From: an uncultured virus (IMG/VR IMGVR_UViG_3300032030_000077)
Lineage: Duplodnaviria; Heunggongvirae; Uroviricota; Caudoviricetes
Strand: one strand, 5' to 3'
Virus record (IMG/VR): IMGVR_UViG_3300032030_000077
Length of the DNA stretch: 64,000 nucleotides
The notes under the pieces are model-generated. The model searched no databases, had not been told where the DNA came from, and saw nothing but the letters and a program-made list of their open reading frames with translations. Below, piece by piece: positions 678-64,000 of this stretch. Numbering within the stretch: position 1 is the first letter of the stretch; each line of letters opens with the position of its first letter. A program made the position numbers and the translations under genes.

Positions 678-3602
678 TTATGCCTCCTTTTTATTAAGTA
701 TGTTAGAAATCGTGCTTGTAGACACATTCATAACATCAGCAATTTGTGAAATTGTATAGACATTGTTGTTATACATAGCTAAAACTCTTGCTTTTTGAGC
801 CTCAGATAGACCGCTTCTAGAGGTAGGTTTAGGTGTTGCCCTTTCTCTAAGAACGTCAGGATCTGTAAACCTCAAGATGTCGGATAATACGGTATGCGAT
901 ACTGCCCTAGCCTGTATAGCCTCCCATTCCCTATCCGTGATCTCAAAGTTCCTATTCTTACGGTTAGAGCCTACTGCATCTCTAGCTCTATCTATGGCTC
1001 TTTGCCTATTCTTCTTATCTTCTTTCTTCCAAGGTTCTATAGACGGATCTAGCCTATACTGCCTCTGTATCTCTGCATTAGCTAATACCTGGGCATATGC
1101 TTCCCTTGGTGCCTGCTTAATAGCATTATTGAGCTTAGCTTTTAATGAAGCAACTTCTGCTTTATACATCTCTGCAGCAGCAGGATCTACTTTGTCTTTA
1201 ACAATGTATACCTGTTCTTTTCTTGCTTCATTGGCCATGTCTTTCATACGCTTAGCGTATTTAGCATATTCTTCTTCTACAGCAGTACCTGTGGATAGGC
1301 TATAGGGATCTCTGGTAGCAGCCATCTGAGTAGTCTTCTGTGTTACAGGTATCTGTACACTGTCATCATACTCATATCTTGTCTTACCATTCTCATCGAT
1401 ATACTTCTTGCCTTTCTTAGATCTTGTTTCACCACTAAGTTTGTATACCAAAGCTCCTTCAGGAAGAGTCTCATCATACCAAGGCTTTCCTTTTTGATTA
1501 ATTCTAGGATTACCCTGAGTTTTAGGTACTCTAGCTTCTCCTGTAGCTCTAGACAATAATGTTCCAGCACCACCAACTTTGACGTTTCCATCAGCATCTA
1601 CGTGTGTCTGGAATTCTTTCTTAAGAGACTTAATATCATTGTCTATTTCAGACTGTTTCCAATCGAGCTTATGCTTTTCAGCATCAATTACAGTCTGTGA
1701 ATGTCTTATTGCTCTTTCGAGCTTATCATTAGAAGCACCAGCAACAGTCATATCTGTAATAAGATTGGTTATCACACCCATCTGTTTCTGAGTTCCAGAA
1801 GAAGTCATAACAGTAATCGGAATGCCATTCTTATTTAAATATACTGTCTTGCCATTTCTCTCTACTGCTTTAGTGCCATAAGTCTCTTTAGCATCGAATC
1901 CAACAAGACCAGGAAAAGGCTTCTGATTCTGAATATCAATCTTACTTCCTTTGCCTGTAGGTATAACAAGAACATCATCACCATCAAAGTCAGCACCTGA
2001 AAGTCTATCGGCATTGAACTTATTAATGCCAACAGCATCTCTAGCCTGTTTAGTCATAACCTTAATGGCTTCAGGATTATTGTTGTTAACTGTAAGAATA
2101 GGTATTTCAGATGTAGATCCATGAGGGAATCTAATAAGAGCTACCTTTTCTCCATTCTTATAGTTCGGTGCATAAACTTCATCATCTTTCAAAGAAGGAA
2201 TAGGTAATATAACCTGATAAGCCTGTCTTGGAAATGCTGAAGCAGCAAGATTAACAGCATCTGAATCACACTTAGAAGCGAATTCTCTGAGATAATGTTC
2301 TCTTACAGCAGGATTGTTGATACGCATAATATCGTCAAACTCTGCTCTCTTCTCTTCATAAGTGTAATTAAGCTGTCTCTTAATGAGTTCAGGAGGCTGC
2401 TTTGATAGCATCTGTGAAGGAACAGTCTTAGAATATCCACCCCAATCTCCTTCAGGATGTACCATATTGATAGCACCTTGTCTTTCAACACCATTCTCAT
2501 CAGTATACTTTGGCTGTCCACCAGCCTGTATTACTGCACCAAAAGGATTATCAGGATCACTCTTGATAGGCTTAAGAACACCATTCTTGCCATCCATCAT
2601 CTTTGTGCCCTGATGCTTGTTAGTATTGAAACGAATATCAACACCATCAGGAAGATCATCAGAATATACAGCCATTCCTTTAAGATAATATCCATTATCA
2701 ACAAGGATTCTTACCTGTGCATAATGATTTCCACCAAGATTCAGATCCTTAGCGCCTCTTCTGATCTCAATAAGACCATCTTTATCTATTCCACCTTCTT
2801 CTGCATAACAAATAGAAACACGCTTTGAATCAACTGAAACAGGAGGCTTAGGTCTATTGAATGTTTCACCACCATCTTCAGAATGATACTCAATAACAGA
2901 ATTGATCTCTCCATTATCTCTAGCAATATACATAGCATGTGATACCTGCTTCTGAGAATATCCAGGAGGGAACTTACCAGCAAGTGTTCTGTTAGTCTGT
3001 TGTCCTTTGTTAGTAACCTGAGGAATACCTATTGTTGCTACAGAATATCCATCAAGTTTCATCATCTCCAAAGCCTGAGCCATGGTAGATTCAGAAACAT
3101 CTATAGCTTGTGGTACACCTTTACCAACATCGATTATTCCTTTCTCTTCAATCTGTCTCTCAAGAAAGTCTGCAGTGTTTCTTGCTTTGTTTGCATTTAC
3201 TTCAACAACATTATTCTTCCACCAATTACGAACAGTTCCTTCAGTAACGCCAAGAGCATTTGCAATCTCAACATTAGTCTTTCCTTCATCACGCATCTGC
3301 TTGGCAGTAGTTATTCTGGCTGACTGTCTCTGTCTACTAATAACTGACTTCCATCTGACTAACTCAGTTGTAGAGCATTCCATCTTATCAGCGATCTCTT
3401 TGTTAGAAAGACCCTGCTTCTTATACTCTTCAACTTCGTCAAGCCATTTACATGAATTTGCGTAAGCGTCATCATGCTGATATGGATTTTCTCCAGATCC
3501 CCAAGGAAATCTACCAGAACGACGCTTCACGCCATAGTGCTCTAAATATAAACCTTCTTCTAACTCGACGAAGGCTTTGAACTCTTCGTAAGAACTTGAC
3601 AT
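678..3602 (-). CDS. Putative single-subunit two-barrel DNA-dependent RNA polymerase (YonO/QDE-1-like) with HTH domains
   Basis: Catalytic GADFDGD (D538/540/542, nt 1977-1991), upstream RFPH, DGLIEI and QVR..LKGM motifs, downstream GVITN and VIDAEK; two N-terminal HTHs and one C-terminal HTH. Confidence 0.8.
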   Translation of the reverse strand: MSSSYEEFKAFVELEEGLYLEHYGVKRRSGRFPWGSGENPYQHDDAYANSCKWLDEVEEYKKQGLSNKEIADKMECSTTELVRWKSVISRQRQSARITTAKQMRDEGKTNVEIANALGVTEGTVRNWWKNNVVEVNANKARNTADFLERQIEEKGIIDVGKGVPQAIDVSESTMAQALEMMKLDGYSVATIGIPQVTNKGQQTNRTLAGKFPPGYSQKQVSHAMYIARDNGEINSVIEYHSEDGGETFNRPKPPVSVDSKRVSICYAEEGGIDKDGLIEIRRGAKDLNLGGNHYAQVRILVDNGYYLKGMAVYSDDLPDGVDIRFNTNKHQGTKMMDGKNGVLKPIKSDPDNPFGAVIQAGGQPKYTDENGVERQGAINMVHPEGDWGGYSKTVPSQMLSKQPPELIKRQLNYTYEEKRAEFDDIMRINNPAVREHYLREFASKCDSDAVNLAASAFPRQAYQVILPIPSLKDDEVYAPNYKNGEKVALIRFPHGSTSEIPILTVNNNNPEAIKVMTKQARDAVGINKFNADRLSGADFDGDDVLVIPTGKGSKIDIQNQKPFPGLVGFDAKETYGTKAVERNGKTVYLNKNGIPITVMTSSGTQKQMGVITNLITDMTVAGASNDKLERAIRHSQTVIDAEKHKLDWKQSEIDNDIKSLKKEFQTHVDADGNVKVGGAGTLLSRATGEARVPKTQGNPRINQKGKPWYDETLPEGALVYKLSGETRSKKGKKYIDENGKTRYEYDDSVQIPVTQKTTQMAATRDPYSLSTGTAVEEEYAKYAKRMKDMANEARKEQVYIVKDKVDPAAAEMYKAEVASLKAKLNNAIKQAPREAYAQVLANAEIQRQYRLDPSIEPWKKEDKKNRQRAIDRARDAVGSNRKNRNFEITDREWEAIQARAVSHTVLSDILRFTDPDVLRERATPKPTSRSGLSEAQKARVLAMYNNNVYTISQIADVMNVSTSTISNILNKKEA

Positions 3603-4482: not shown

Positions 4483-4508
4483 CATAAAAGGGCCTGTTTT
4501 TTTTACGA
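4483..4508 (-). promoter_or_regulatory. 26-nt phage promoter motif heading the nuclease-RNAP operon
   Basis: TCGTAAAAAAAACAGGCCCTTTTATG; one of 18 copies of identical length. Confidence 0.75.
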
Positions 4509-4544
4509 TTTGAAGAAATACCTGAAAATATTAATTTTTACCCG

Positions 4545-4811
4545 TGTGTTGTTTTTTTTTTTTTTTTACTTTCTCCTATATTTTTTTATTATTTTTTTAT
4601 AAAAGTATAAAAAAAAAATAACAAAACAACACAAAACCCCGCAAACCCAGTATCCATGCGGGTTTCAGCTGTGTTGTTTTTCAAATAAAAACAACACAAA
4701 AACAACACAAAACAACACAAAACCCCATTTTTTGGCCATTTTTCACCAAAAATATCATTTTCAATTTTCAAGTTTTCAAAAACAACACAAAAACAACACA
4801 AAAACAACACA
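4545..4811. repeat. Iteron-like repeat region, putative replication origin
   Basis: 7 direct AACAACACA copies (4625, 4690, 4701, 4711, 4781, 4792, 4803), 2 inverted copies (4545, 4670), an AT/poly-T tract and an AAACCC-N11-GGGTTT palindrome; non-coding. Confidence 0.6.
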
Positions 4812-4870
4812 AAAAAATAAAAGGAAAAAGGGCCTTTTCGACCCTTAATCCTTGATTAATTACAGGTTAA

Positions 4871-19248: not shown

Positions 19249-20214
19249 TTAAGATATCAATGAAGGACAAATTGATCCGCCAGTATTCCAAGTTATAAGC
19301 ATTCCATCAAGAAAAACCTTGGGATTCTCAGGATCAGGAACCGCTACATTCTTCCATCTTGCTCTTATCTCTCCGTCCGGGTGATTAATGTCCCATCCTG
19401 ATACATTATGCTCCTCAGTCCAATAATCCTTGTCGTCGACATCCTTGAAGTACTTGTTAATATCATTCATGTTAACCCTTACATTGGGCTTAGGATTGAT
19501 CAAGTACCTGCCGTTGTCGTCTTTCTTACCGAACAGCTTCCTGTTATAGTTCTTTGCAACATCGAGAATGTGATCAATTCTCCACTCTTCAATGGGGTCC
19601 CAATAAGGATCGCCTTCAACCCAAAGAGTTGTACAGAAAGGATCTATGCTGGCACTCGAAGCAGTCTTCTTGGTTTCCTTGACAACTTTAGTCTTACCAT
19701 TCTTGTCAACAACTTCTTTCTCTTCGGTTATCTCAGATACACCGTTAAATATCTTATCTGCTTCCTCTTCTCCAAGAGCATCATAAACCTTCTGCTTGTC
19801 GCTCATAGCTGCGTCAACAGTTGCCAGAAGAGTTGAAGTAAGAACCTTATTTCTGTGATCATAGATCTTAACTGAACCTACAAACAAACTTAAAGAAAGA
19901 CTTTCAAGTGCTATAGCCCTACCGTAAGTCTGTCCAAGTTTTCCGATAGTTCTTGCATACTGACCGAACATGTCGCGCTTATAATCTTTAATGCTGTAAT
20001 CAGGATTATTACTCTTTTTGGCTTCCTTTATCTTGTCAACCATATCTTTATGCTCTTCAAGAATATCAATAGCCTTAGGTGTTGCCTTAACGGCCTCTAC
20101 GACTGCTGCAACAGAAGTTATTGCCCCTGCAACAGCCATAATCTTAGGTGCGTTCTTATACAGAACTCGTCCAACAGTTGACACTGCGGACACAAGTTTA
20201 AATGGCAAATGCAT
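19249..20214 (-). CDS. DUF6353-like protein (paralog 1)
   Basis: PKI...GAI..V...V.ATPKA N-terminus shared with 21335 and 22132; family name from recall. Confidence 0.7.
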   Translation of the reverse strand: MHLPFKLVSAVSTVGRVLYKNAPKIMAVAGAITSVAAVVEAVKATPKAIDILEEHKDMVDKIKEAKKSNNPDYSIKDYKRDMFGQYARTIGKLGQTYGRAIALESLSLSLFVGSVKIYDHRNKVLTSTLLATVDAAMSDKQKVYDALGEEEADKIFNGVSEITEEKEVVDKNGKTKVVKETKKTASSASIDPFCTTLWVEGDPYWDPIEEWRIDHILDVAKNYNRKLFGKKDDNGRYLINPKPNVRVNMNDINKYFKDVDDKDYWTEEHNVSGWDINHPDGEIRARWKNVAVPDPENPKVFLDGMLITWNTGGSICPSLIS

Positions 20215-21314: not shown

Positions 21315-21340
21315 CATTAAATAATCTGTATTTTTTACGA
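21315..21340 (-). promoter_or_regulatory. 26-nt phage promoter motif
   Basis: TCGTAAAAAATACAGATTATTTAATG. Confidence 0.75.
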
Positions 21341-22123
21341 ATACTCTCTGTATTTGGGCGCCTTAGGATCTACTTCAGGCCTGAAATATCCACAAACCTC
21401 GCCTGTTTCGATCTCAAAGTAATCAAATATAAGTTCCGGTGCATCTTTACATACCTTATTTACATCTTCGAGCCTCCATTCCATAGCTCCAGTAGTTCTG
21501 GGATCAAGCTTTGGAAGCTGAAAACACTCAAGATAGTCATTGATGGTCACACTTTGCCGATTCCACAGATCCCTATTGAATACATTCAAACCTCTATCTA
21601 TAAAGTCCCTGGAAGCTCTCAAATATGTATTTGAATAAGGTTCATAATATAAAGTATTACCGGTTCTCGTATTGACCACATTGCCTTCAACATAAGGAGT
21701 TTCCTTGAGATTGTTCTCAGCAACCTTATGCTGTATCTTTTTATACTCTTTTTCGCCCACAACCTCGCGGGTTGCTTCGTCCATTTTCTGAGACGCTTCC
21801 TCCGTTACTTTGCAGGCTGTTAAGAGTGCTGCGGTTCTACCATTTTCGATCTTCCTGGCCCCAAGAATACATACAATTGACAGGATGGTTATTACTACAG
21901 GGAAAATATAAAACTTCCATGTATGCTTAACTACCTCTTTTCCTGTCAGTTTTTCTCCTTTTTCTTCCTCCGCCTGCGCAAGAACCTCTAATGCCTTAGG
22001 CGTGTTCTTAACAGCGGATACAGTAGAGGATATAAAACCGACAATTCCGAATGCTGTAAGTATCTCAGGACTATGCTCGACAATTATTTTGCCGATTTTC
22101 AATAGTCCTTTTGCTATTTTCAT
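21335..22123 (-). CDS. DUF6353-like protein (paralog 2)
   Basis: SPEILTAFGIVGFISSTVSAVKNTPKA. Confidence 0.75.
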   Translation of the reverse strand: MKIAKGLLKIGKIIVEHSPEILTAFGIVGFISSTVSAVKNTPKALEVLAQAEEEKGEKLTGKEVVKHTWKFYIFPVVITILSIVCILGARKIENGRTAALLTACKVTEEASQKMDEATREVVGEKEYKKIQHKVAENNLKETPYVEGNVVNTRTGNTLYYEPYSNTYLRASRDFIDRGLNVFNRDLWNRQSVTINDYLECFQLPKLDPRTTGAMEWRLEDVNKVCKDAPELIFDYFEIETGEVCGYFRPEVDPKAPKYREYS

Positions 22124-22131
22124 GTCTCCTC

Positions 22132-22944
22132 CTACTCATAAATTGGCGATAAATATCCACAGTCTTTTGCAACCTTCTCAGTTAACGGCCAAATACTGTA
22201 TTCGATTACTCGAGTTTCTCTTCCGCCGTTAATTTCCCAGTTCGTTGGAGCATTTTCTGTTCCAGGAACATTGATCTGCTTGAAGTCTATGTCGAGCCAG
22301 TTATAACCTCCCTGGTGCTCGAGTATGTAGTCTTCTGTCCACACAGATTTGGCTGCTTTAGGACTATTTTTTCTTACCTGAGGGAAAATATCACCAAGTT
22401 TTATGCCCTCGTTGCTCAAATGAAGTACTTTATTAGCCTCACATTTAGCGTCGTAGAACTCAGCCATTGTCATTTGAAATGCTGTTTCGCTTAACGGCTC
22501 AAAAAACCAATACTTATTCTCGTCGTGCAAACATGCTTCACGTTCTTCCGCAATTTCTTCCTTGACCTGACTGTCCAGAAGCTTAGCTTTTTCCTCGCCT
22601 ATAATCTCTTTGATCTTGTCTTTATGCTTTGCATATGCTGCTGACAGACCTGCTGTGGTGACTATTAGACCCTTAATCTGCCTCTGAGACACTGCACATG
22701 ACGCTATACCGGTTCCTACAGCCAGTGCAAGCGTTGCAGCCGTAGGCCAGTATACCTGAGCATAATCCTTGACCTTTTCTTTAGTTGTGAGATCAGTCTC
22801 ACCTGTAGGATCGATCTCTAATCTGTGATCATCTAACAGTTTTACGGCCTTAGGTGTCTCGTCAATTGCTAAAAATACAGAGGCAATTGTAGACACGACC
22901 GATATTCCAGTTAATATGATCGGTAATGCACCTTTAAAACCCAT
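22132..22944 (-). CDS. DUF6353-like protein (paralog 3)
   Basis: PIILTGISVVSTIASVFLAIDETPKA. Confidence 0.75.
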   Translation of the reverse strand: MGFKGALPIILTGISVVSTIASVFLAIDETPKAVKLLDDHRLEIDPTGETDLTTKEKVKDYAQVYWPTAATLALAVGTGIASCAVSQRQIKGLIVTTAGLSAAYAKHKDKIKEIIGEEKAKLLDSQVKEEIAEEREACLHDENKYWFFEPLSETAFQMTMAEFYDAKCEANKVLHLSNEGIKLGDIFPQVRKNSPKAAKSVWTEDYILEHQGGYNWLDIDFKQINVPGTENAPTNWEINGGRETRVIEYSIWPLTEKVAKDCGYLSPIYE

Positions 22945-24910: not shown

Positions 24911-25414
24911 TCACCTCATATTAGAATATCCAGCAGCCTTAGAGTTCTTGAAGTTCGGTTTCTCAAGGCATATACATTCGTTACAAGTACCTGCATAATA
25001 CTTATGAACCCAGATCTCTTCATTGAGACCAAGTTCATTCACAGCCGTTTGCCATCTGGTCTTAAAGCCGTCAATGCTTTTTACTTTCTTACCGGATGAA
25101 AGATCGTCTTCCATCTTAAAATCGATACTCTTACCTTTTCCGAGATAAAAATCTTCTACTGCATCGATATACCACTTGAGATCATATCCTCTTCCTGTCA
25201 AAGAACCTCTATAACGACGCTTCTTAGGCTCTTCTGGAATAGATGGATGCATGGCAGCTACGTCAACCATAACTGCATCGACCTTGGTAGGTTCCTTATA
25301 CTTATCAAGAAGCCATACAAAAATATCAATTGCATTAGCTTCCTTTGCCGCACCTACGAGATTGTTGTAACTGCTCTCACCAAATGTCTCTACGAACTTC
25401 TCTTTGTTTGTCAT
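24911..25414 (-). CDS. Hypothetical protein, first gene of the operon under promoter 25482-25507
   Basis: 167-aa ORF; its 5' UTR is the apparent target of the 261-388 RNA. Confidence 0.75.
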   Translation of the reverse strand: MTNKEKFVETFGESSYNNLVGAAKEANAIDIFVWLLDKYKEPTKVDAVMVDVAAMHPSIPEEPKKRRYRGSLTGRGYDLKWYIDAVEDFYLGKGKSIDFKMEDDLSSGKKVKSIDGFKTRWQTAVNELGLNEEIWVHKYYAGTCNECICLEKPNFKNSKAAGYSNMR

Positions 25415-25447
25415 GTTTTACCCTCTTTTCTTAATGTGTGTGTTTGC

Positions 25448-25481
25448 AAAAAGAAATGAAGAGCAGAATTAATCTACTCTC
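25448..25481 (-). terminator. Promoter-proximal hairpin/attenuator
   Basis: GAGAGUAGA-UUAAU-UCUGCUCUU then AUUUCUUUUU, directly after the promoter motif. Confidence 0.5.
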
Positions 25482-25493
25482 CATTACATAACA

Positions 25494-25778
25494 TTATTTT
25501 TTTACGACTGCTTTTACTATGCTGTATATAGCAATAGGCCAAATCGCTCCACCAATAAAACTTACTCCGAATAAAAACATAGCTATTTTTGCATCGTTAT
25601 GTCCAAACATTTCTTCAATATCTTCACGTACGTCTTTTGCTGAATCGCCGTCGAATACAGGGTTAGGCATAATGTCTAATACACTGTTTCTATAAGCGCT
25701 CCAATAAAATGCGCAAACGTTAGTACAGAAATATAAAGCTCCAATAACAACGTATGCAAATACTAAATATTTAATCAT
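25494..25778 (-). CDS. Early membrane protein (2 TM)
   Basis: Two hydrophobic helices; own promoter motif. Confidence 0.75.
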   Translation of the reverse strand: MIKYLVFAYVVIGALYFCTNVCAFYWSAYRNSVLDIMPNPVFDGDSAKDVREDIEEMFGHNDAKIAMFLFGVSFIGGAIWPIAIYSIVKAVVKK

Positions 25779-25886
25779 TTATTGTCCTCTCTTTCTGTGC
25801 TGATTAATAGCCTTCATTAAAGAGTCAAAATTAATTGCGAAAAAGACAAGAGACCAACAACTTGTTAGTCTCTCATCTTACATACT

Positions 25887-26009
25887 TCATAGCTTTTTAA
25901 TGATGGCGATCAATCCGCCAATGCCCAGCAATATCGCTATTATTGGTATTAAATATATCGCCAAAAATAGAAATATAACCCCGGCCATTTGAGCTATTGC
26001 TTCCCACAT
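25887..26009 (-). CDS. Early hydrophobic peptide (40 aa, not in ORF track)
   Basis: MWEAIAQMAGVIFLFLAIYLIPIIAILLGIGGLIAIIKKL; AAAGGAGG RBS; promoter and terminator. Confidence 0.75.
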   Translation of the reverse strand: MWEAIAQMAGVIFLFLAIYLIPIIAILLGIGGLIAIIKKL

Positions 26010-26085
26010 TAAATCCTCCTTTCGTATCCATTAAAGAAATATAATTCTTTACGAAAAGATTTAAAGAGCAAGACCAATGTTCGAT

Positions 26086-26226
26086 TTAGTCTTCCTCGTC
26101 TTCTTTATGTGCTTTCCTGTTAAAACTCTCTCTATAGTTATCATCGTCATGAATCTCATCGAGCATCTGCTCAATTGTCTTTCCACGATAAAGTTCCATT
26201 TCAATTGTGTCGTAAGTATTTGCCAT
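26086..26226 (-). CDS. Early acidic peptide (46 aa, not in ORF track)
   Basis: MANTYDTIEMELYRGK...KEDEED; GGAGG RBS. Confidence 0.7.
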   Translation of the reverse strand: MANTYDTIEMELYRGKTIEQMLDEIHDDDNYRESFNRKAHKEDEED

Positions 26227-26333
26227 AATAGTTTCCTCCGTAAATATAAATTTAGTTACGGCCTTACTCTTTATCCTCTATTCCTCCTTCATTAAATAGT
26301 TAATAAAAATTACGAAAAAGAGAAGAGAGCCAA

Positions 26334-26483
26334 TTAAGACTCTCTCCACATACGTTTCATATCCTCGAGTTCTCTTTCACGTCTTTTACCCTCTTCCATA
26401 CCTTTGGATTCTCCAAACGCATATCCAAGACCAAAGATCACTATTGAAAATACTCCTAATACGATAGTATATGCTAATGTCAT
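26334..26483 (-). CDS. Early single-pass membrane peptide (49 aa, not in ORF track)
   Basis: MTLAYTIVLGVFSIVIFGLGYAFG...; GAGGAG RBS. Confidence 0.75.
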   Translation of the reverse strand: MTLAYTIVLGVFSIVIFGLGYAFGESKGMEEGKRRERELEDMKRMWRES

Positions 26484-26582
26484 ATTAATCTCCTCTCTTA
26501 TCAGAGCACTCATTGCTCTTCATAATATGAGTACATTTTTTTACGAAAAGAAAAACAGGGAGACTTAAAATATAATTTTGTC

Positions 26583-26897
26583 TCAAACTGCTTTACCTTC
26601 AAGTGCATCTATCTCTGTTTCAATCTGATCGAATATATCGACTACGTCGAATTCCCAGTCATTTAAAAACGTTTCACCTACTGGAATTCCAACAGTGAAG
26701 AATACCATGTGATTCTTAGTGTCATACAAGCATCCGGTGTGTCCACCGAAGTTGTAAAACTCGTTGTAATCACGAAGTCTCTTCCTGATTTCATCCATTA
26801 CATGAATGTTCGTCGACTTGACAATAAACGTTACGTCATAATACTCGGTTCCATTTCTATCGATTTTTGTTCTGATGTAATCACAAGTTCTTTCCAT
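26583..26897 (-). CDS. Early hypothetical protein
   Basis: 104-aa ORF; AAAGGA RBS; own promoter and terminator. Confidence 0.75.
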   Translation of the reverse strand: MERTCDYIRTKIDRNGTEYYDVTFIVKSTNIHVMDEIRKRLRDYNEFYNFGGHTGCLYDTKNHMVFFTVGIPVGETFLNDWEFDVVDIFDQIETEIDALEGKAV

Positions 26898-26966
26898 AAT
26901 TTGTCCTTTCCGTCTCCCTTCATAAAAGAAGAAAATATAATTACGAAAAGAAAAGAGGACTAAACG

Positions 26967-27074
26967 TCAGTCCTCATTTAAATGTCTGAATACATATTTG
27001 ATTGCTCCTACGACAATTGCTATCGTAGAAACAACGATCAATACAAATCCGACCATTCCAAATATAAGTGCCAT
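26967..27074 (-). CDS. Early hydrophobic peptide (35 aa, not in ORF track)
   Basis: MALIFGMVGFVLIVVSTIAIVVGAIKYVFRHLNED; AAAGGAGG RBS. Confidence 0.75.
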   Translation of the reverse strand: MALIFGMVGFVLIVVSTIAIVVGAIKYVFRHLNED

Positions 27075-27124
27075 AAAGCGCCTCCTTTCTTCTTCATTAA
27101 AGGATGCAAAAATTTTACGACAAA

Positions 27125-27214
27125 TAAAAAAGAGACTTAGGTTATCTGCTAACGCCCACGAGGGGCTCTTCTTCGAGTTTTCACTCTCAGTGCTTCAAAG
27201 ACTTCCATATCTCT
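27125..27214 (-). ncRNA. Putative structured small RNA C (~90 nt)
   Basis: Between a promoter motif and a U-tract, with no RBS; 5'/3' closing stem AGAGAU/GUCUCU enclosing three hairpins. Confidence 0.65.
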
Positions 27215-27243
27215 CATTAAAGGATGCAAAAATTTTACGACAT

Positions 27244-27371
27244 AAAAAAAGTACGAGAATGACGATCGTCGTTATTTTATCATGGGCCAATTGTCAGGAT
27301 TTCTCCTCAGCCACGATCCCGATTAGTTCCCACTTCTGGGTCTTCAAACTTCACATACCGTTCACTCTCTT
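27244..27371 (-). ncRNA. Putative structured small RNA B (~125 nt)
   Basis: Between a promoter motif and a U7 tract; closing stem GAGAGUGA(A)CGGU/AUCGUCAUUCUC; inner stems CCC/GGG, AUCGUGG/CCAUGAU and GGA-GAAA-UCC. Confidence 0.65.
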
Positions 27372-27397
27372 CATTAAAGGATGCATAAATTTTACGA

Positions 27398-27554
27398 AAA
27401 AGAAAAGGAGTAAGAATAACTTGCATACTATTTCGCGCATATACAAACCCGTCTCTCGAACTACTTGCCGTATAGGTCTCTTGGGTATTAATTCCAAGAT
27501 AGCGCGTGCAAGAAACCTAGACTTTTATCGTCTAAGTTTTACCTCTTACTCTCT
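27398..27554 (-). ncRNA. Putative structured small RNA A (~155 nt)
   Basis: Closing stem GAGUAAGAG/UUCUUACUC; stems AAACUUAGAC/GUCUAGGUUU, CUUGCA/UGCAAG, CGCGC/GCGCG and UCUUGG/CCAAGA; no RBS or ORF. Confidence 0.7.
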
Positions 27555-27598
27555 CATTAAATAACTCATAAATTTTACGATTAAAAAAGGAAGAGGGC

Positions 27599-27832
27599 TT
27601 ATTCAGCCCTATCCTCCTTTTGTTCCTTTGTTTCTTCTTCGTCTTTAAACAAGTTCCCGATTGTTTTCTCCATAACTTTCGGCATTGCTTCGTCTAAATA
27701 CCAGTCAAGGACGTTTCCAAACATTTCCTTGTATCCAACAAATATCTTGAATACAACGAATGCTATGGTAATAAGTCCCATGGCACAAAAAGTTGCAGCC
27801 AAAGCTATTAAAGCTAATAATAGTTCGCTCAT
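27599..27832 (-). CDS. Early single-pass membrane protein (first early cassette)
   Basis: GGAGG RBS before MSELLL; transmembrane helix. Confidence 0.75.
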   Translation of the reverse strand: MSELLLALIALAATFCAMGLITIAFVVFKIFVGYKEMFGNVLDWYLDEAMPKVMEKTIGNLFKDEEETKEQKEDRAE

Positions 27833-27896
27833 ATTTTTTACCTCCATAAAAACAAACAATAGTTACCATAATACTATTGAATATTTTTACGAAGTT

Positions 27897-28103
27897 AAAA
27901 AAGAAAAGGGGTAAATAATTTTGCTATCAAATATCAACTTGGTATAGGAGTGGTGTAGGAATGTAGGAGGTTTTAGTGTTCCTAACCACTCTTAACCAAG
28001 TCTAAGAAAGGCCCATTTTACGGGCACTCTGCGTAGTTATCATGTTTTTATGATATGGCAGAATCATTTTCCATAAATTAAGGGAGGAGTGATAACTACG
28101 CAG
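27897..28103 (-). ncRNA. Structured 3' trailer of the late operon with anti-RBS loops
   Basis: Perfect 14-bp inverted repeat 28029-28042/28090-28103, short GCCC(G)U/AUGGGC hairpin, and a ~22-bp hairpin at 27937-28001; loops contain CUCCUCCCU and ACCUCCU. Confidence 0.55.
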
Positions 28104-28115
28104 TTTCTATTGGGT

Positions 28116-28310
28116 TTATGTAGGATTAGTGTAAGGATGGTCCAAGACTTCTATGAATGACTTGTATATACCATCCTTATCCATCCTAACATCGACTTTA
28201 TCCACGACCATCAATTGTACAGGACGTGGAATATCTTTTGGACCGTATTCAATTCCTTTTATGACAAAAGGCGTATCATACCTTAAGTCAACCAAGTCTT
28301 TGACTATCAT
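28116..28310 (-). CDS. Hypothetical protein
   Basis: 64-aa ORF, last of the late operon; weak RBS. Confidence 0.6.
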   Translation of the reverse strand: MIVKDLVDLRYDTPFVIKGIEYGPKDIPRPVQLMVVDKVDVRMDKDGIYKSFIEVLDHPYTNPT

Positions 28311-28313
28311 GGA

Positions 28314-28511
28314 TTACAGAGCTTCAATAGCAGCAACAAAATCAGCATAGGTTTCAGCGCCTTCTGCGAGAGTCTTAAGATCTGATACTCTTATAACAGC
28401 GTCTCCCTTGAACAGATCCTTGGGCTCGCCTACACTGAGATCGACACCTCTGTTAAGGAATTCAATCTTTCCAGTTGTTTTGTTTGTTCTTGTTTCTCCT
28501 CTTGCTGACAT
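28314..28511 (-). CDS. Hypothetical (possible head fibre/decoration-like) protein
   Basis: 65-aa ORF with AAGGAGG RBS. Confidence 0.7.
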   Translation of the reverse strand: MSARGETRTNKTTGKIEFLNRGVDLSVGEPKDLFKGDAVIRVSDLKTLAEGAETYADFVAAIEAL

Positions 28512-30624: not shown

Positions 30625-32382
30625 CTATTCGAATGCGTCTTGATTATTCTTGTAAGCAATGAAAGCGTCCATAGAACTTGCTACAGGGTCAATCTTGGCT
30701 TCATAACGTTTCTTAAGAAGCTTACGGTTTCCATTTGTATCTTCCATAACGATGCAGTTACCCATGGCAAATTGCATTATCCCCTCATCAAATATCCATA
30801 GCTTTTCAAAAGCCAGCTTCTTGATCTCGCCAAGAGGTACAGACTCGGTTCTACTTCCCTGAATGACTTTCTCTATGCCAAAAGGCCCGTTCTCGGAAGC
30901 CCATCTCTCTACAAATTCTTTAGCATTATACGGGTCGTATCCAAAGCATCTGACATCGTATTCCATCTTTGTGATGAAATTGTCCAACTCGTCATAAACC
31001 TGCATTATGTCAAGAATTACACCGTTTAATACAATCAAAGATCCTTCATTAATAAACTCTTCATACTTGATTCGCATAGCCTGAGGAAGTTTGTCCAATG
31101 TCTTACTTGAAATATAATTCCTTGTCTTGATTGCAAATGCTCCGCCAGGTAAAGGGAACAAAAACGAGAACGAACAGAAGTCGTCACCCTGCGATAAGTC
31201 TGCACCCATAGCACATCCCATACCACGTAGTGAATGCAGTCTTTGCGTTTTTGTCTCTTCGTAAGTAAAGAAATAAGTGAAACCTTCCATAGGTATTCCA
31301 AATCTCTTTGCTAAAATATCATTTCTGGCGCTTGGAACATTTTCTGCTCTTTCTACTTCCTGCTGATATGTCTCATAGCTAACCGTCTTTCCAAGATTCG
31401 GATTTGCTTTAAGCCACATTTCAGGCATACCGACCTCGTCAAGACTGTCAAGCTTATACCACCATATGCTTACATGCGGATTATAGTATTCACCACGTAA
31501 TATCTTTGTAAGCTCAATCTTAATGTCGTCACCAGGGCCATTTCTTACAGTACCTTCCGACGAAGTTGATACTATAAGCCAATGACCGTCGCCCTGCATT
31601 GCATTCTTAGCACAAGACTGCTCCAAAGGTGTCATAACATCTTCTGAAATAGCTCCAGAAAGCCACTCATCAATTGTAGCTATCTTACATCTGCTACCCT
31701 GAAGCTTATCAATATCCATAGGAACCGTTTCAAGCTTAGAATTCGTCAGGAAATTCTGTATTCCAAGTTTTGTAGAAGCCAATTTAGGTCTATTAGCTCT
31801 ATTTCCTGTTGTATTTTGAATTGATCCTGCAGTTAGGAACTTAAACACAGGTCCTCTAGCACGAGTTATAGCTGTCTTGAGCGAAGACATAACCTCGTCA
31901 GCCTGTCTAATGGTCGGTGCTGTAGTAACCTGATTTGTGGTTGACCTATCTGCCACCAGATAGTAGCCGTGAATACAACTCTCATACAGGGTTTTTGCAG
32001 CACCTCTTCCTATTATTAAGTACTGTTTGTTTATAAGTCGTGTTTTAACCTGTTTCTGGACGTAATGTCCACCTGTTCCATCAGGGTTTTTCTCGAATAC
32101 AGAGCGTTCTATAAAGTAATACCATCCAAAGATCTGTTCCCCCCACAACTTGAACGTGTCAAGCAAATATAAATCAGATCCGTCGGTTAAGGTTAATTCT
32201 CCTTCGCAAAATGCTATCCACGCCTCAACTGCTCGATCATCATAGTAAATATCCGGGTCACGTATAAGTTCATCAATTCTATTCATCTCCATTGAGACTT
32301 CCCTGTTAACAGGTATTTCTCCTCTTAATACCGCATCCCGGAATTGACCGTAATAATACGGTGTTGCAGTGTTAGATAGCAT
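30625..32382 (-). CDS. terL: Terminase large subunit
   Basis: Walker A GRGAAKT, Walker B ATIDE, nuclease GADLS.GDD, GYDPYN and KIDPV. Confidence 0.9.
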   Translation of the reverse strand: MLSNTATPYYYGQFRDAVLRGEIPVNREVSMEMNRIDELIRDPDIYYDDRAVEAWIAFCEGELTLTDGSDLYLLDTFKLWGEQIFGWYYFIERSVFEKNPDGTGGHYVQKQVKTRLINKQYLIIGRGAAKTLYESCIHGYYLVADRSTTNQVTTAPTIRQADEVMSSLKTAITRARGPVFKFLTAGSIQNTTGNRANRPKLASTKLGIQNFLTNSKLETVPMDIDKLQGSRCKIATIDEWLSGAISEDVMTPLEQSCAKNAMQGDGHWLIVSTSSEGTVRNGPGDDIKIELTKILRGEYYNPHVSIWWYKLDSLDEVGMPEMWLKANPNLGKTVSYETYQQEVERAENVPSARNDILAKRFGIPMEGFTYFFTYEETKTQRLHSLRGMGCAMGADLSQGDDFCSFSFLFPLPGGAFAIKTRNYISSKTLDKLPQAMRIKYEEFINEGSLIVLNGVILDIMQVYDELDNFITKMEYDVRCFGYDPYNAKEFVERWASENGPFGIEKVIQGSRTESVPLGEIKKLAFEKLWIFDEGIMQFAMGNCIVMEDTNGNRKLLKKRYEAKIDPVASSMDAFIAYKNNQDAFE

Positions 32383-63215: not shown

Positions 63216-63339
63216 AATATTTCTCCTTTAAAAATGTTAATTTGTTACTTTAGCCACCATTAGAAGTTTACTAGGACATCTAACAGTTATGCTTGGAATA
63301 AAAATCCCACTCATCTATTGATTGTAGTGGGAATTAATA

Positions 63340-64000
63340 CTATCTCCTTCTCACGTTAACCCTTATCGGTTCTACAGGCTCGTTTCCTGATCTATGAAAG
63401 TCTATCATGTCAGCTCTGTCTTTGATCTGGGAAAGCTGCATGCTTTTAACATTATTGATAAGGCTGGCTGCTGATGTAGCAGCAATGGCGGCTGGTAATA
63501 CCAATCCAGCAACGGGCATTGCTAATACTGCAGGGTTTAATATTACCGAACTGATCAACGCACTTCCCAAAACTGAAGAAGCTCCGGCCATGCCTTTACG
63601 CTTAGAAATTTCTTTCTTAATTGCCTGGCGGCTTTCGTTATCTACATAACTTCCGTCTTTGTTCGTGTACCTTTTCTTACCTTCGTCAGTTAAGGTTCCA
63701 TCTTCATTTTGATACCTTCTGACGCCCCATTTCATACCAAGAACGCCATGATGCTCAAGATAGTCATAAGAATGACTAAGATTAGGACTATAATAACCTT
63801 CATGCTGAGGCTTATCCTGATACTTGTAATACAAAGAAATTGCCTGCTTGATTATTTCGTGTCTTACACTATCAGGCGCCTGCCTCCAATAAGATGGATA
63901 AGAATTCCTAACAGTATTTAAAAACGAATCTACTGCTGAAACTGCATCTTTATGTCTATGAAGAGCTATAATAAAATCTGGCATTCTTCCAGCTTTACCA
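63340..64000 (-). CDS. Partial HHGVLGMKWG-motif protein (probably 5'-truncated by the window edge)
   Basis: Frame is open to the edge; LSHSYDYLEHHGVLGMKWGVRRYQNEDGTLT followed by a hydrophobic hairpin. Confidence 0.7.
   Translation of the reverse strand, partial: GKAGRMPDFIIALHRHKDAVSAVDSFLNTVRNSYPSYWRQAPDSVRHEIIKQAISLYYKYQDKPQHEGYYSPNLSHSYDYLEHHGVLGMKWGVRRYQNEDGTLTDEGKKRYTNKDGSYVDNESRQAIKKEISKRKGMAGASSVLGSALISSVILNPAVLAMPVAGLVLPAAIAATSAASLINNVKSMQLSQIKDRADMIDFHRSGNEPVEPIRVNVRRR

What the first reader, a model, noticed from the sequence alone, without database searches (positions are those of the whole stretch)
27125..27554. Three tandem, independently promoted, ORF-less structured small RNAs
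Seen: the near-identical promoter copies at 27215 and 27372, and the copy at 27555, are each followed not by an RBS and gene but by ~90, ~125 and ~155 nt respectively. In each, the 5' end (AGAG...) pairs with the 3' end just before a U-tract and encloses multi-branch stems. RNA A has at least five helices. Loops are purine-rich, unlike the antisense hairpins. Inference: early phage ncRNAs acting as protein or ligand decoys (for example anti-defence, antitoxin or tRNA mimics) or as ribozymes. None matches a family I recognise.
Basis: partly seen in the sequence, partly recalled or inferred. Interest (0 to 1): 0.85.

Follow-up and report, generated by a model that had tools for sequence, protein, structure and literature searches.

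The report
Three gene-less early phage promoter units
Three back-to-back copies of a phage early promoter are each followed by 90-155 bases with no gene, but only one of these stretches shows signs of being a folded, expressed RNA, so this looks like an ordinary by-product of cassette shuffling rather than a new class of RNA.

Summary
The window is a ~61-kb tailed phage with every gene on the minus strand. Positions 25400-27900 hold about 11 small early cassettes. Each starts with one strand-specific promoter module (T-run, TCGTAA, 13 nt, TWTWAT, G, purine-rich start): 18 copies on the minus strand, 0 on the plus strand, 0.6 expected.

Confirmed:
- Units C (27555-27400), B (27372-27245) and A (27215-27125) follow such promoters and have no Shine-Dalgarno-led ORF.
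- They match no Rfam family and no tRNA.

Not confirmed:
- A and B fold no better than shuffles (z -1.05, -0.71). Neighbouring mRNAs reach about -5. C is modest (-2.55).
- All three lack the local terminator hairpin of the protein cassettes.
- The "5'-3' closing stem" is mostly generic purine-start versus pyrimidine-tail pairing, which non-cognate ends match in 1-2 of 16 cases.
- No homologues exist for covariation. One close relative has only B, with A and C absent exactly between promoter copies.
- Only C appears as a separate contig in a metatranscriptome.

Best reading: gene-less cargo of a PeSL-like shuffling array, working as stacked promoters and short leader RNAs ahead of a 35-aa membrane-peptide gene. 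A decoy or ribozyme role is unsupported, though still possible for C.

The parts
27555..27579 (-). Promoter module ahead of unit C (CGTAA at 27579 to the invariant G at 27555)
   Evidence: Motif copy. The RNA-library contig starts 13 nt after the hexamer, as at other copies.
27400..27555 (-). Unit C, about 156 nt, no SD-led ORF. Predicted three-way fold closed by a 9-bp 5'-3' stem next to a T4CT5 run.
   Evidence: z -2.48; z -2.55; -1.78 with a 6-nt later start; contig 27384-27542, 100% identical, depth 3.6; covariance model finds only itself.
27372..27396 (-). Promoter module ahead of unit B
27245..27372 (-). Unit B, about 128 nt, no SD-led ORF and no local terminator hairpin (-3.4 kcal/mol)
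   Evidence: (z -0.71). It is 127 of 128 nt identical in the one related contig.
27215..27239 (-). Promoter module ahead of unit A
27125..27215 (-). Unit A, about 91 nt. Holds a 19-codon ATG frame (ATG at nt 8) without an SD. Ends in a T6 run.
   Evidence: (z -1.05), (local hairpins -7.6 kcal/mol).
27095..27119 (-). Fourth near-identical promoter module, directly ahead of the SD of the 35-aa gene
26967..27074 (-). 35-aa hydrophobic peptide gene with a strong SD. The first real gene downstream of the three units.
   Evidence: translation. Weak match to phrog_7486, E 4.9e-4.
26955..26975 (-). Canonical terminator hairpin plus T-run that ends the 35-aa cassette
   Evidence: (-12.1 kcal/mol).
27594..27610 (-). 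Canonical terminator of the upstream 86-aa cassette (gene 27599-27859)
   Evidence: (-18.2 kcal/mol).
25455..27915 (-). Whole array of about 11 promoter-headed early cassettes in which the three units sit

Best explanation
The three units are gene-less cargo in an array of small early cassettes that is built and reshuffled by recombination between copies of one promoter module. This resembles the PeSL cassettes of T4-type phages. Each unit is transcribed from its own promoter copy into a short, purine-rich, untranslated RNA. The units lack the local hairpin that ends the protein cassettes. At the next T-run only a weak long-range 5'-3' helix is available, so termination is probably partial. 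Polymerases then run on, and PC, PB, PA and the fourth copy act as a stack of four promoters with a leader ahead of the 35-aa membrane-peptide gene, whose strong hairpin ends the transcripts. The discrete short RNAs are by-products.

Shown: the promoter copies, the absence of SD-led ORFs, the absence of local hairpins, the cassette-wise presence or absence in a relative, and unit C in an RNA library.

Inferred: promoter activity of A and B, partial read-through, and the stacking effect.
For: - Motif counts: 18 on the minus strand, 0 on the plus strand, 0.58 expected. The copies are placed ahead of SD-led genes.
- The four copies at 27119, 27239, 27396 and 27579 resemble each other more than they resemble the rest.
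- A, B and C have no terminator call. Their local hairpins are -7.6, -3.4 and -5.0 kcal/mol, against -12.1 to -21.1 in five protein cassettes.
- A and B are not more folded than shuffles.
- The related contig L005 has the order 86-aa gene, promoter, B, promoter, 35-aa gene. C and A are missing exactly from promoter copy to promoter copy, and the first promoter is a chimera. This is the pattern Arbiol et al. describe for PeSL exchanges (PMC2839356; abstract and passages read).
- A second lineage (L010 = L011, terminase 81% identical) has the same array type with a related promoter and two other gene-less units.
- In the RNA library X1, 4 of 5 contigs that lie behind a motif copy begin 11-15 nt after the hexamer, including the unit C contig 27384-27542. 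One contig (26492-26906) bridges a hairpin-poor T-run and the next promoter.
Against: - Cognate 5'-3' complementarity of A, B and C is better than most non-cognate pairs (as good in 1, 1 and 2 of 16). It abuts the T-run in A and C, which would fit designed closure and real termination.
- B is 127 of 128 nt identical in L005, while flanking blocks are 88.7-92.8% identical. A contig of run X3 covers part of A and B with 0 of 188 letters different, while a neighbouring gene differs at 31 of 572. This could reflect selection on the RNAs. However, the L005 high-identity block also covers the next two genes (98.5%), so recent exchange explains it as well.
- The unit C contig passes the start of its T-run by only 16 nt, short of the 31 the tool requires to count as bridging. 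Read-through at C is therefore not shown.
- The stack is not at the head of the array, because the 86-aa cassette lies upstream.
- The promoter type is unknown and it is not sigma-70-like in spacing. One search lists none of the copies, so the start point is uncertain by about 6 nt.
Confidence: 0.5

Rival explanations
1. The units are discrete, functional trans-acting early small RNAs (decoys, sponges or anti-defence RNAs). Each is ended by a terminator stem formed between its own 5' and 3' ends. They are carried as mobile cassettes and turn over fast.
For: - Own promoter copies.
- MFE folds close 5' to 3' next to the T-run.
- Cognate ends pair better than most non-cognate ones.
- C has z -2.5 and is a separate contig in an RNA library.
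- B, and part of A, are more conserved than their flanks in two comparisons.
- Gene-less units recur in a second lineage.
- Phage genomes seldom keep 430 nt of junk (general knowledge).
Against: - A and B fold no better than shuffles and worse than neighbouring mRNAs.
- There are no canonical terminators.
- The end-pairing pattern is not reproduced in L010, where X1 is matched by 6 of 12 non-cognate pairs and X2 by 9 of 12.
- The single B substitution removes a predicted end pair and is not compensated.
- No homologues were found in 165 related loci, 1.70 Mb in all fetched loci. There is no Rfam match.
- No complementarity beyond chance was found in the phage or in 42 host-like genomes, where hits fall almost only on the promoter and T-run parts.
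Confidence: 0.25
2. The units are cis-acting leader RNAs that modify the transcribing polymerase (processive antitermination, as with HK022 put). This would let it pass the many terminators of the array and the promoter-proximal hairpins ahead of the replication and RNA polymerase operons.
For: The units lie directly behind promoters and lack terminators of their own. The array downstream is full of terminators, and two promoter copies (25506, 4507) are followed at once by a hairpin plus T-run ahead of long operons.
Against: The three units share no sequence or fold. A relative does without A and C. No put-like or other family matched in Rfam. Nothing here measures termination.
Confidence: 0.08
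3. Unit A is a leaderless or near-leaderless mRNA for a 19-aa basic peptide (ATG at nt 8). B and C might also encode tiny peptides.
For: The ATG lies 7 nt after the promoter hexamer, where a sigma-type start could fall, and a 19-codon frame follows.
Against: There is no SD, whereas real genes of the array have strong ones. B and C have no comparable frame: the B frames at the start run 4 codons, and other frames cross promoter copies. Translated comparison with 82 related loci found nothing, best E 0.093.
Confidence: 0.05
4. The region is a plus-strand protein gene (stop-free run 26941-27564, 207 codons; ORF of 188 aa from TTG), or a DNA-level site (origin or operator array) rather than RNA genes.
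For: The plus-strand run exceeds all 2000 mononucleotide shuffles. There are four near-identical 27-nt repeats.
Against: - The plus strand is stop-poor throughout: 50 runs of 100 codons or more, four of them above 200.
- The frame is not kept in L005.
- There is no PHROG match. The repeats fall in different frames, since one spacing is 157 nt. The frame would overlap the SD-led 35-aa gene.
- An origin-like iteron field lies elsewhere, at 4540-4830.
- The repeat is the general promoter motif found ahead of genes.
Confidence: 0.04

Closest known systems
PeSL (promoter-early stem-loop) cassettes of T4-type phages (Arbiol et al. 2010, PMC2839356; abstract and passages read)
   Same: A repeated composite regulatory module lies between small orphan genes of a plastic early region. 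Close relatives differ by units missing or present exactly between module copies.
   Different: This is a ~61-kb siphophage with Firmicute-type ribosome sites, not a T4-type myophage. The promoter does not have sigma-70 spacing. The three units lack the stem-loop half of the module and carry no ORF. Mini-circles were not tested.
5'UTR-derived and other ncRNA candidates of virulent Pseudomonas phages (Putzeys et al. 2024, PMC10914365; passages read, supplementary tables not seen)
   Same: Short non-coding transcripts start at phage promoters and end ahead of a gene, and they are screened by the absence of an SD-led ORF.
   Different: Those candidates have mapped 5' and 3' ends, northern blots and conservation within a genus. 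Here only contigs of an RNA library exist for one unit, and there are no homologues.
Tandem early promoters A1, A2, A3 of phage T7 (recalled, no call)
   Same: Three same-direction strong early promoters lie roughly 120-180 nt apart with no gene between them, and they feed the first downstream gene.
   Different: In T7 they sit at the genome end and use canonical sigma-70 promoters. Here they sit inside an array, each unit ends in a T-run, and the promoter type is unknown.
HK022 putL/putR antiterminator RNAs
   Same: Non-coding RNA directly behind an early promoter, upstream of terminators.
   Different: No sequence or fold likeness was tested or found. The three units are unrelated to each other, and a relative lacks two of them.

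Membership tests
PeSL-like shuffling cassette array | A repeated promoter-containing module in the intergenic spaces of a region of small orphan genes | tested here: met
   18 minus-strand copies, 11 of them within 25400-27900. The neighbouring small ORFs mostly have no family.
PeSL-like shuffling cassette array | The module includes a stem-loop that terminates the preceding unit | tested here: not met
   Met for protein cassettes but not for A, B and C: no terminator call, and local hairpins of only -3.4 to -7.6 kcal/mol.
PeSL-like shuffling cassette array | Differences between close relatives map to exchanges between module copies | tested here: met
   L005 lacks C and A from promoter copy to promoter copy and has a chimeric promoter. 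This rests on one relative only.
PeSL-like shuffling cassette array | A strong sigma-70-consensus promoter | tested here: not met
   None of the copies is in the sigma-70-type scan. The conserved blocks are TCGTAA, 13 nt, then TWTWAT-G.
PeSL-like shuffling cassette array | Excised mini-circles; measured promoter and terminator activity | not testable with these tools
   Needs inverse PCR and reporter assays.
Stand-alone bacterial or phage sRNA gene | Own promoter, no ORF, intrinsic terminator | tested here: inconclusive
   Promoter motif and absence of an ORF are met. A canonical terminator is absent. Only a long-range closing stem is available, and it is marginally specific.
Stand-alone bacterial or phage sRNA gene | A discrete transcript | tested here: inconclusive
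   C is a separate 159-nt contig in an RNA library. Contigs show no ends or strand.
Stand-alone bacterial or phage sRNA gene | A conserved structure with covariation | tested here: inconclusive
   There are no diverged homologues. The one substitution in B is uncompensated.
Any Rfam family, tRNA or tmRNA | Score at or above the family threshold | tested here: not met
   0 matches at gathering score in the window. The best E-value inside the units is 1.5-3.4. ARAGORN found 0 genes.
Type I toxin-antitoxin (small hydrophobic peptide plus antisense sRNA) | Extended complementarity between the sRNA and the peptide mRNA | tested here: not met
   Duplexes of B and C with the 35-aa mRNA score z -1.04 and -1.71 against shuffles; for A that mRNA was not among the five best of 20 targets. 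No antisense match of 13 nt or more without mismatch was found.
Tandem early promoter stack (T7 A1-A3 type) | Several same-direction promoters without a gene or efficient terminator between them, feeding one gene | tested here: inconclusive
   The layout is met. Read-through is not shown.

The most novel reading that the evidence does not exclude
The array is a kind of integron for early RNA genes. Promoter-flanked cassettes would carry fast-evolving, lineage-private non-coding RNAs (C, perhaps A and B, and X1/X2 in the sister lineage). These would be ended by a stem between their own 5' and 3' ends and would act early in infection as decoys against host defence or host RNA-binding proteins.
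Probability: 0.15. Interest if true: 0.7.

Novelty: new member of a known kind. Interest (0 to 1): 0.3.

Why it matters
If the units are only empty cargo and stacked promoters, the value is descriptive. They would be a clear example of PeSL-like modular shuffling outside the T4-type phages, in an uncultured gut or rumen siphophage with a YonO/RdRp-like RNA polymerase and an unusual, very regular early promoter. If unit C or the others prove to be functional RNAs, phage host-takeover arrays would carry RNA cargo as well as small proteins. Gene-less cassettes, which this scan keeps meeting in unrelated phages, would then deserve systematic testing.

Tried and rejected
- **Sequence homologues.** blastn 'distant' of 26900-28000 against GenBank phages gave no match. 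blastn and nhmmer of A, B and C against 82 loci and then 165 loci found only B, in the single contig behind L005, L086, L087 and L088. The promoter pattern found only that same contig in viral contigs and in metagenome contigs. The 86-aa and 167-aa neighbour proteins as bait gave 1 and 3 loci.
- **Structure homologues.** A covariance model of C searched against 100 sources (1.29 Mb) found only itself. No models were built for A or B.
- **Decayed gene test.** tblastx of the units against related loci gave a best E of 0.093.
- **Targets and mimics.** Short-word blastn against the window gave at most 12 perfect nt, E 0.25. A duplex of A with the RNA polymerase start region looked strong (z -5.2). 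It is ordinary against 5271 windows of the genome: -36.2 against a mean of -22.6 and a best of -43.7. In 42 host-like MAGs, chosen through relatives of the CHAP endolysin, hits fall almost only on promoter and T-run parts. The host is unknown.
- **RNA cover.** In runs X1 and X2 no contig lies on A, B or the 35-aa gene.
- **A possible rule.** 'Units without a local hairpin have specific 5'-3' closure' holds for 4 of 4 units in the window. It is not reproduced in L010, so I dropped it.
- **Plus-strand ORF.** Rejected.
- **Earlier notes of this scan.** There are none for this genome or sequence.

Full report
**Setting.** All long ORFs of the window lie on the minus strand. PHROG matches show a tailed phage:
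- portal, protease/major-head fusion, a 2675-aa tape measure, terminase large subunit (30625-32382) and holin;
- then small orphan genes;
- then replication genes (a DNA polymerase of 1355 aa, a helicase) and a 974-aa RNA polymerase of the family annotated 'RNA-dependent RNA polymerase' (phrog_4291, E 0).

The 270-aa protein next to the holin has a CHAP domain. The window's own assembly is not held. The virus record G001 (61,068 bases) is 100% identical over the region. The finding lies where the late and lysis genes end and the small early genes begin.

**The repeat is a promoter module.** The pattern occurs 18 times on the minus strand and never on the plus strand. Block shuffles give 0.58 on average and at most 5 in 300. 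All 18 copies lie between 27891 and 4507, the early and replication half, and 11 of them fall within 25400-27900. Many sit directly ahead of a strong Shine-Dalgarno site and a start codon.

The module does not have sigma-70 spacing, and the consensus scan lists none of the copies. The invariant G followed by a purine run recalls promoters of phage-encoded polymerases (my recollection). The promoter of the YonO polymerase of SPbeta is not known (PMC5467207, passages read). The transcription start is therefore uncertain: either the invariant G or about 6 nt further on.

**What is confirmed.** Behind the copies at 27579, 27396 and 27239 lie 156, 128 and 91 nt (units C, B, A) without an SD plus start codon.
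- The minus-strand frames of 8 codons or more either run across a promoter copy or lack an SD. Unit A holds a 19-codon ATG frame that begins 7 nt after the hexamer.
- Rfam gives no match at gathering score in the whole window. At permissive settings the best E-value inside the units is 1.5-3.4.
- ARAGORN finds nothing.

**What is not confirmed: structure.** On their own, A and B fold no better than dinucleotide shuffles (z -1.16 and -0.89), and C somewhat better (-2.48, with 4 of 200 shuffles as good). I folded all ten array units by one rule:

| Unit | z, start at invariant G | z, start 6 nt later |
|---|---|---|
| 86-aa cassette | -4.95 | -5.77 |
| 35-aa cassette | -5.13 | -4.77 |
| unit at 26545 | -5.12 | -4.25 |
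| unit at 26053 | -4.64 | -4.41 |
| C | -2.55 | -1.78 |
| A | -1.05 | +0.76 |
| B | -0.71 | +0.37 |

So the gene-less units are the less folded members of the array, not the more folded ones.

**What is not confirmed: closing stem and terminator.** The MFE folds do pair the 5' end with the 3' end. But every unit starts purine-rich and ends pyrimidine-rich because both ends belong to the promoter module.
- RNAduplex of the first 16 nt against the last 20 nt gives C -12.4, B -14.3 and A -9.8 kcal/mol.
- Mismatched ends of other units average -8.0 (sd 3.0) and do as well in 1, 1 and 2 of 16 cases. The best cognate pair belongs to a protein cassette, the 104-aa one at -16.5 (9 of 11 units scored).
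- The T-run is part of the next promoter module.
- None of the three units has a canonical terminator. Their local hairpins are -7.6, -3.4 and -5.0 kcal/mol, against -12.1 to -21.1 in five protein cassettes.
- I noticed that in the window the four hairpin-poor units are the ones with good end-pairing. The sister lineage does not show this, so I do not rely on it.

**Relatives.**
- No GenBank phage matches the region.
- Among 165 loci fetched around relatives of the terminase, the endolysin and neighbour genes, A and C have no match. B is found only in one 6.6-kb contig.
- That contig is about 89-93% identical in most of the neighbourhood. It has the order 86-aa gene, promoter, B, promoter, 35-aa gene. 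C and A are missing exactly between promoter copies, and the first promoter is a chimera of the C and B copies.
- B differs there at 1 of 128 positions. The change removes a predicted terminal pair and is not compensated. The high-identity block also covers the next two genes (98.5%).
- Two contigs identical to each other across the array (L010, L011; terminase 81%) have the same kind of array with a related module (TTTT(C)GCAAA ... TATTATG). They carry two other gene-less units of 147 and 134 nt, with z -1.31 and -1.00. These units are also without relatives.
- More distant relatives have a different gene order and no such array.
- A covariance model of C finds only itself in 1.29 Mb. Covariation cannot be tested.

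**RNA evidence.** Two metatranscriptome runs of one sample and one run of unknown kind hold parts of the stretch. Laid on 25400-28500, run X1 gives six contigs, all 100% identical:
- 25505-25802
- 26095-26279
- 26492-26906
- 27384-27542 (unit C, depth 3.6)
- 27613-27839
- 28242-28496

Of the five contigs that lie behind a motif copy, four begin 11-15 nt after the hexamer (13, 11, 15 and 13 nt) and the fifth begins 28 nt after. I take that regularity as a sign that these are RNA and that the motif is a working promoter, for C as well. The tool warns that DNA may be present in such libraries and that contigs show no ends.

The unit C contig passes the start of its T-run by 16 nt, too little to count as bridging. 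Contig 26492-26906 does bridge a hairpin-poor T-run and the next promoter.

Run X3 holds A and part of B. It shows 0 of 188 letters different in one contig, and 6 differences plus one extra letter in A's T-run in the other. A neighbouring gene differs at 31 of 572 positions.

**Other readings tested.**
- The plus-strand stop-free run of 207 codons beats all 2000 mononucleotide shuffles. But the plus strand has 50 runs of 100 codons or more and four above 200. The frame is not kept in the relative and has no family.
- Translated comparison gives no sign of a decayed gene.
- No antisense target stands out in the phage.
- 42 host-like genomes match almost only the promoter and T-run parts.
- An origin-like iteron field lies elsewhere.

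**Reading.** The layout matches the PeSL idea of Arbiol et al. (PMC2839356), a lead I took from earlier notes of this scan and then checked against the paper. A repeated regulatory module flanks small orphan cargo and serves as the site of exchange. The differences are:
- the phage type;
- a promoter without sigma-70 spacing;
- for these three units, the missing stem-loop and missing ORF.

I therefore read A, B and C as gene-less cargo whose main effect is to place three more promoter copies, with short untranslated leaders and weak stops, ahead of the 35-aa membrane-peptide gene (confidence 0.5). A role as discrete functional small RNAs stays open, most of all for C (0.25). Short non-coding transcripts behind phage promoters are a known kind (PMC10914365, passages read; its supplementary tables were not seen). 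Tandem early promoters without genes between them are known from T7 (recalled). The finding is real as an anatomical observation and ordinary in kind, and its RNA-function claims are unproven.

Noticed in passing
window 4540-4830 (minus strand): A gene-free field of repeated GTGTTGTTTT-type iterons (about 8 copies) with long A and T runs and one GC-rich hairpin, between the 114-aa gene and the promoter copy at 4507. It looks like a replication origin.
   Followed up: no
window 25506-25455 and 4507-4440 (minus strand): Two promoter copies are followed at once by a hairpin that begins at the invariant G, then a T-run, then the SD of a long operon (the 167-aa gene and replication genes; the 110-aa gene through to the RNA polymerase). 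These could be promoter-proximal terminators or 5' stabiliser hairpins, which suggests regulated read-through.
   Followed up: partly
window 678-3602 (minus strand): A 974-aa RNA polymerase of the family annotated 'RNA-dependent RNA polymerase' (phrog_4291, E 0). By tblastn it is 42-44% identical to proteins of Arthrobacter phages, Faecalibacterium phage FP_oengus and others (250 records). Whether it or the host enzyme reads the TCGTAA-N13-TWTWAT-G motif is open.
   Followed up: partly
L010 13559-13705 and 13729-13862: The sister lineage has two other gene-less units in its array. The first holds a strong SD followed by a 6-codon mini-frame inside a hairpin. Neither unit has relatives or an Rfam match.
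   Followed up: partly
window 26941-27564 (plus strand): A stop-free run of 207 codons antisense to the whole finding. The plus strand is stop-poor everywhere (50 runs of 100 codons or more), and the frame is not kept in the relative.
   Followed up: yes
window 19249-20214, 21335-22123, 22132-22944 (minus strand): Three paralogous genes of one unknown family (phrog_2152) lie in a row in the replication module.
   Followed up: no
window 27325-27333 (unit B) and 27487-27495 (unit C); plus strand 63326-63340: B and C share a short single-stranded GGAAYUAAU motif. Both are complementary to the same spot at the end of the gene 63340-63984. The matches (11-13 nt) are at chance level.
   Followed up: partly
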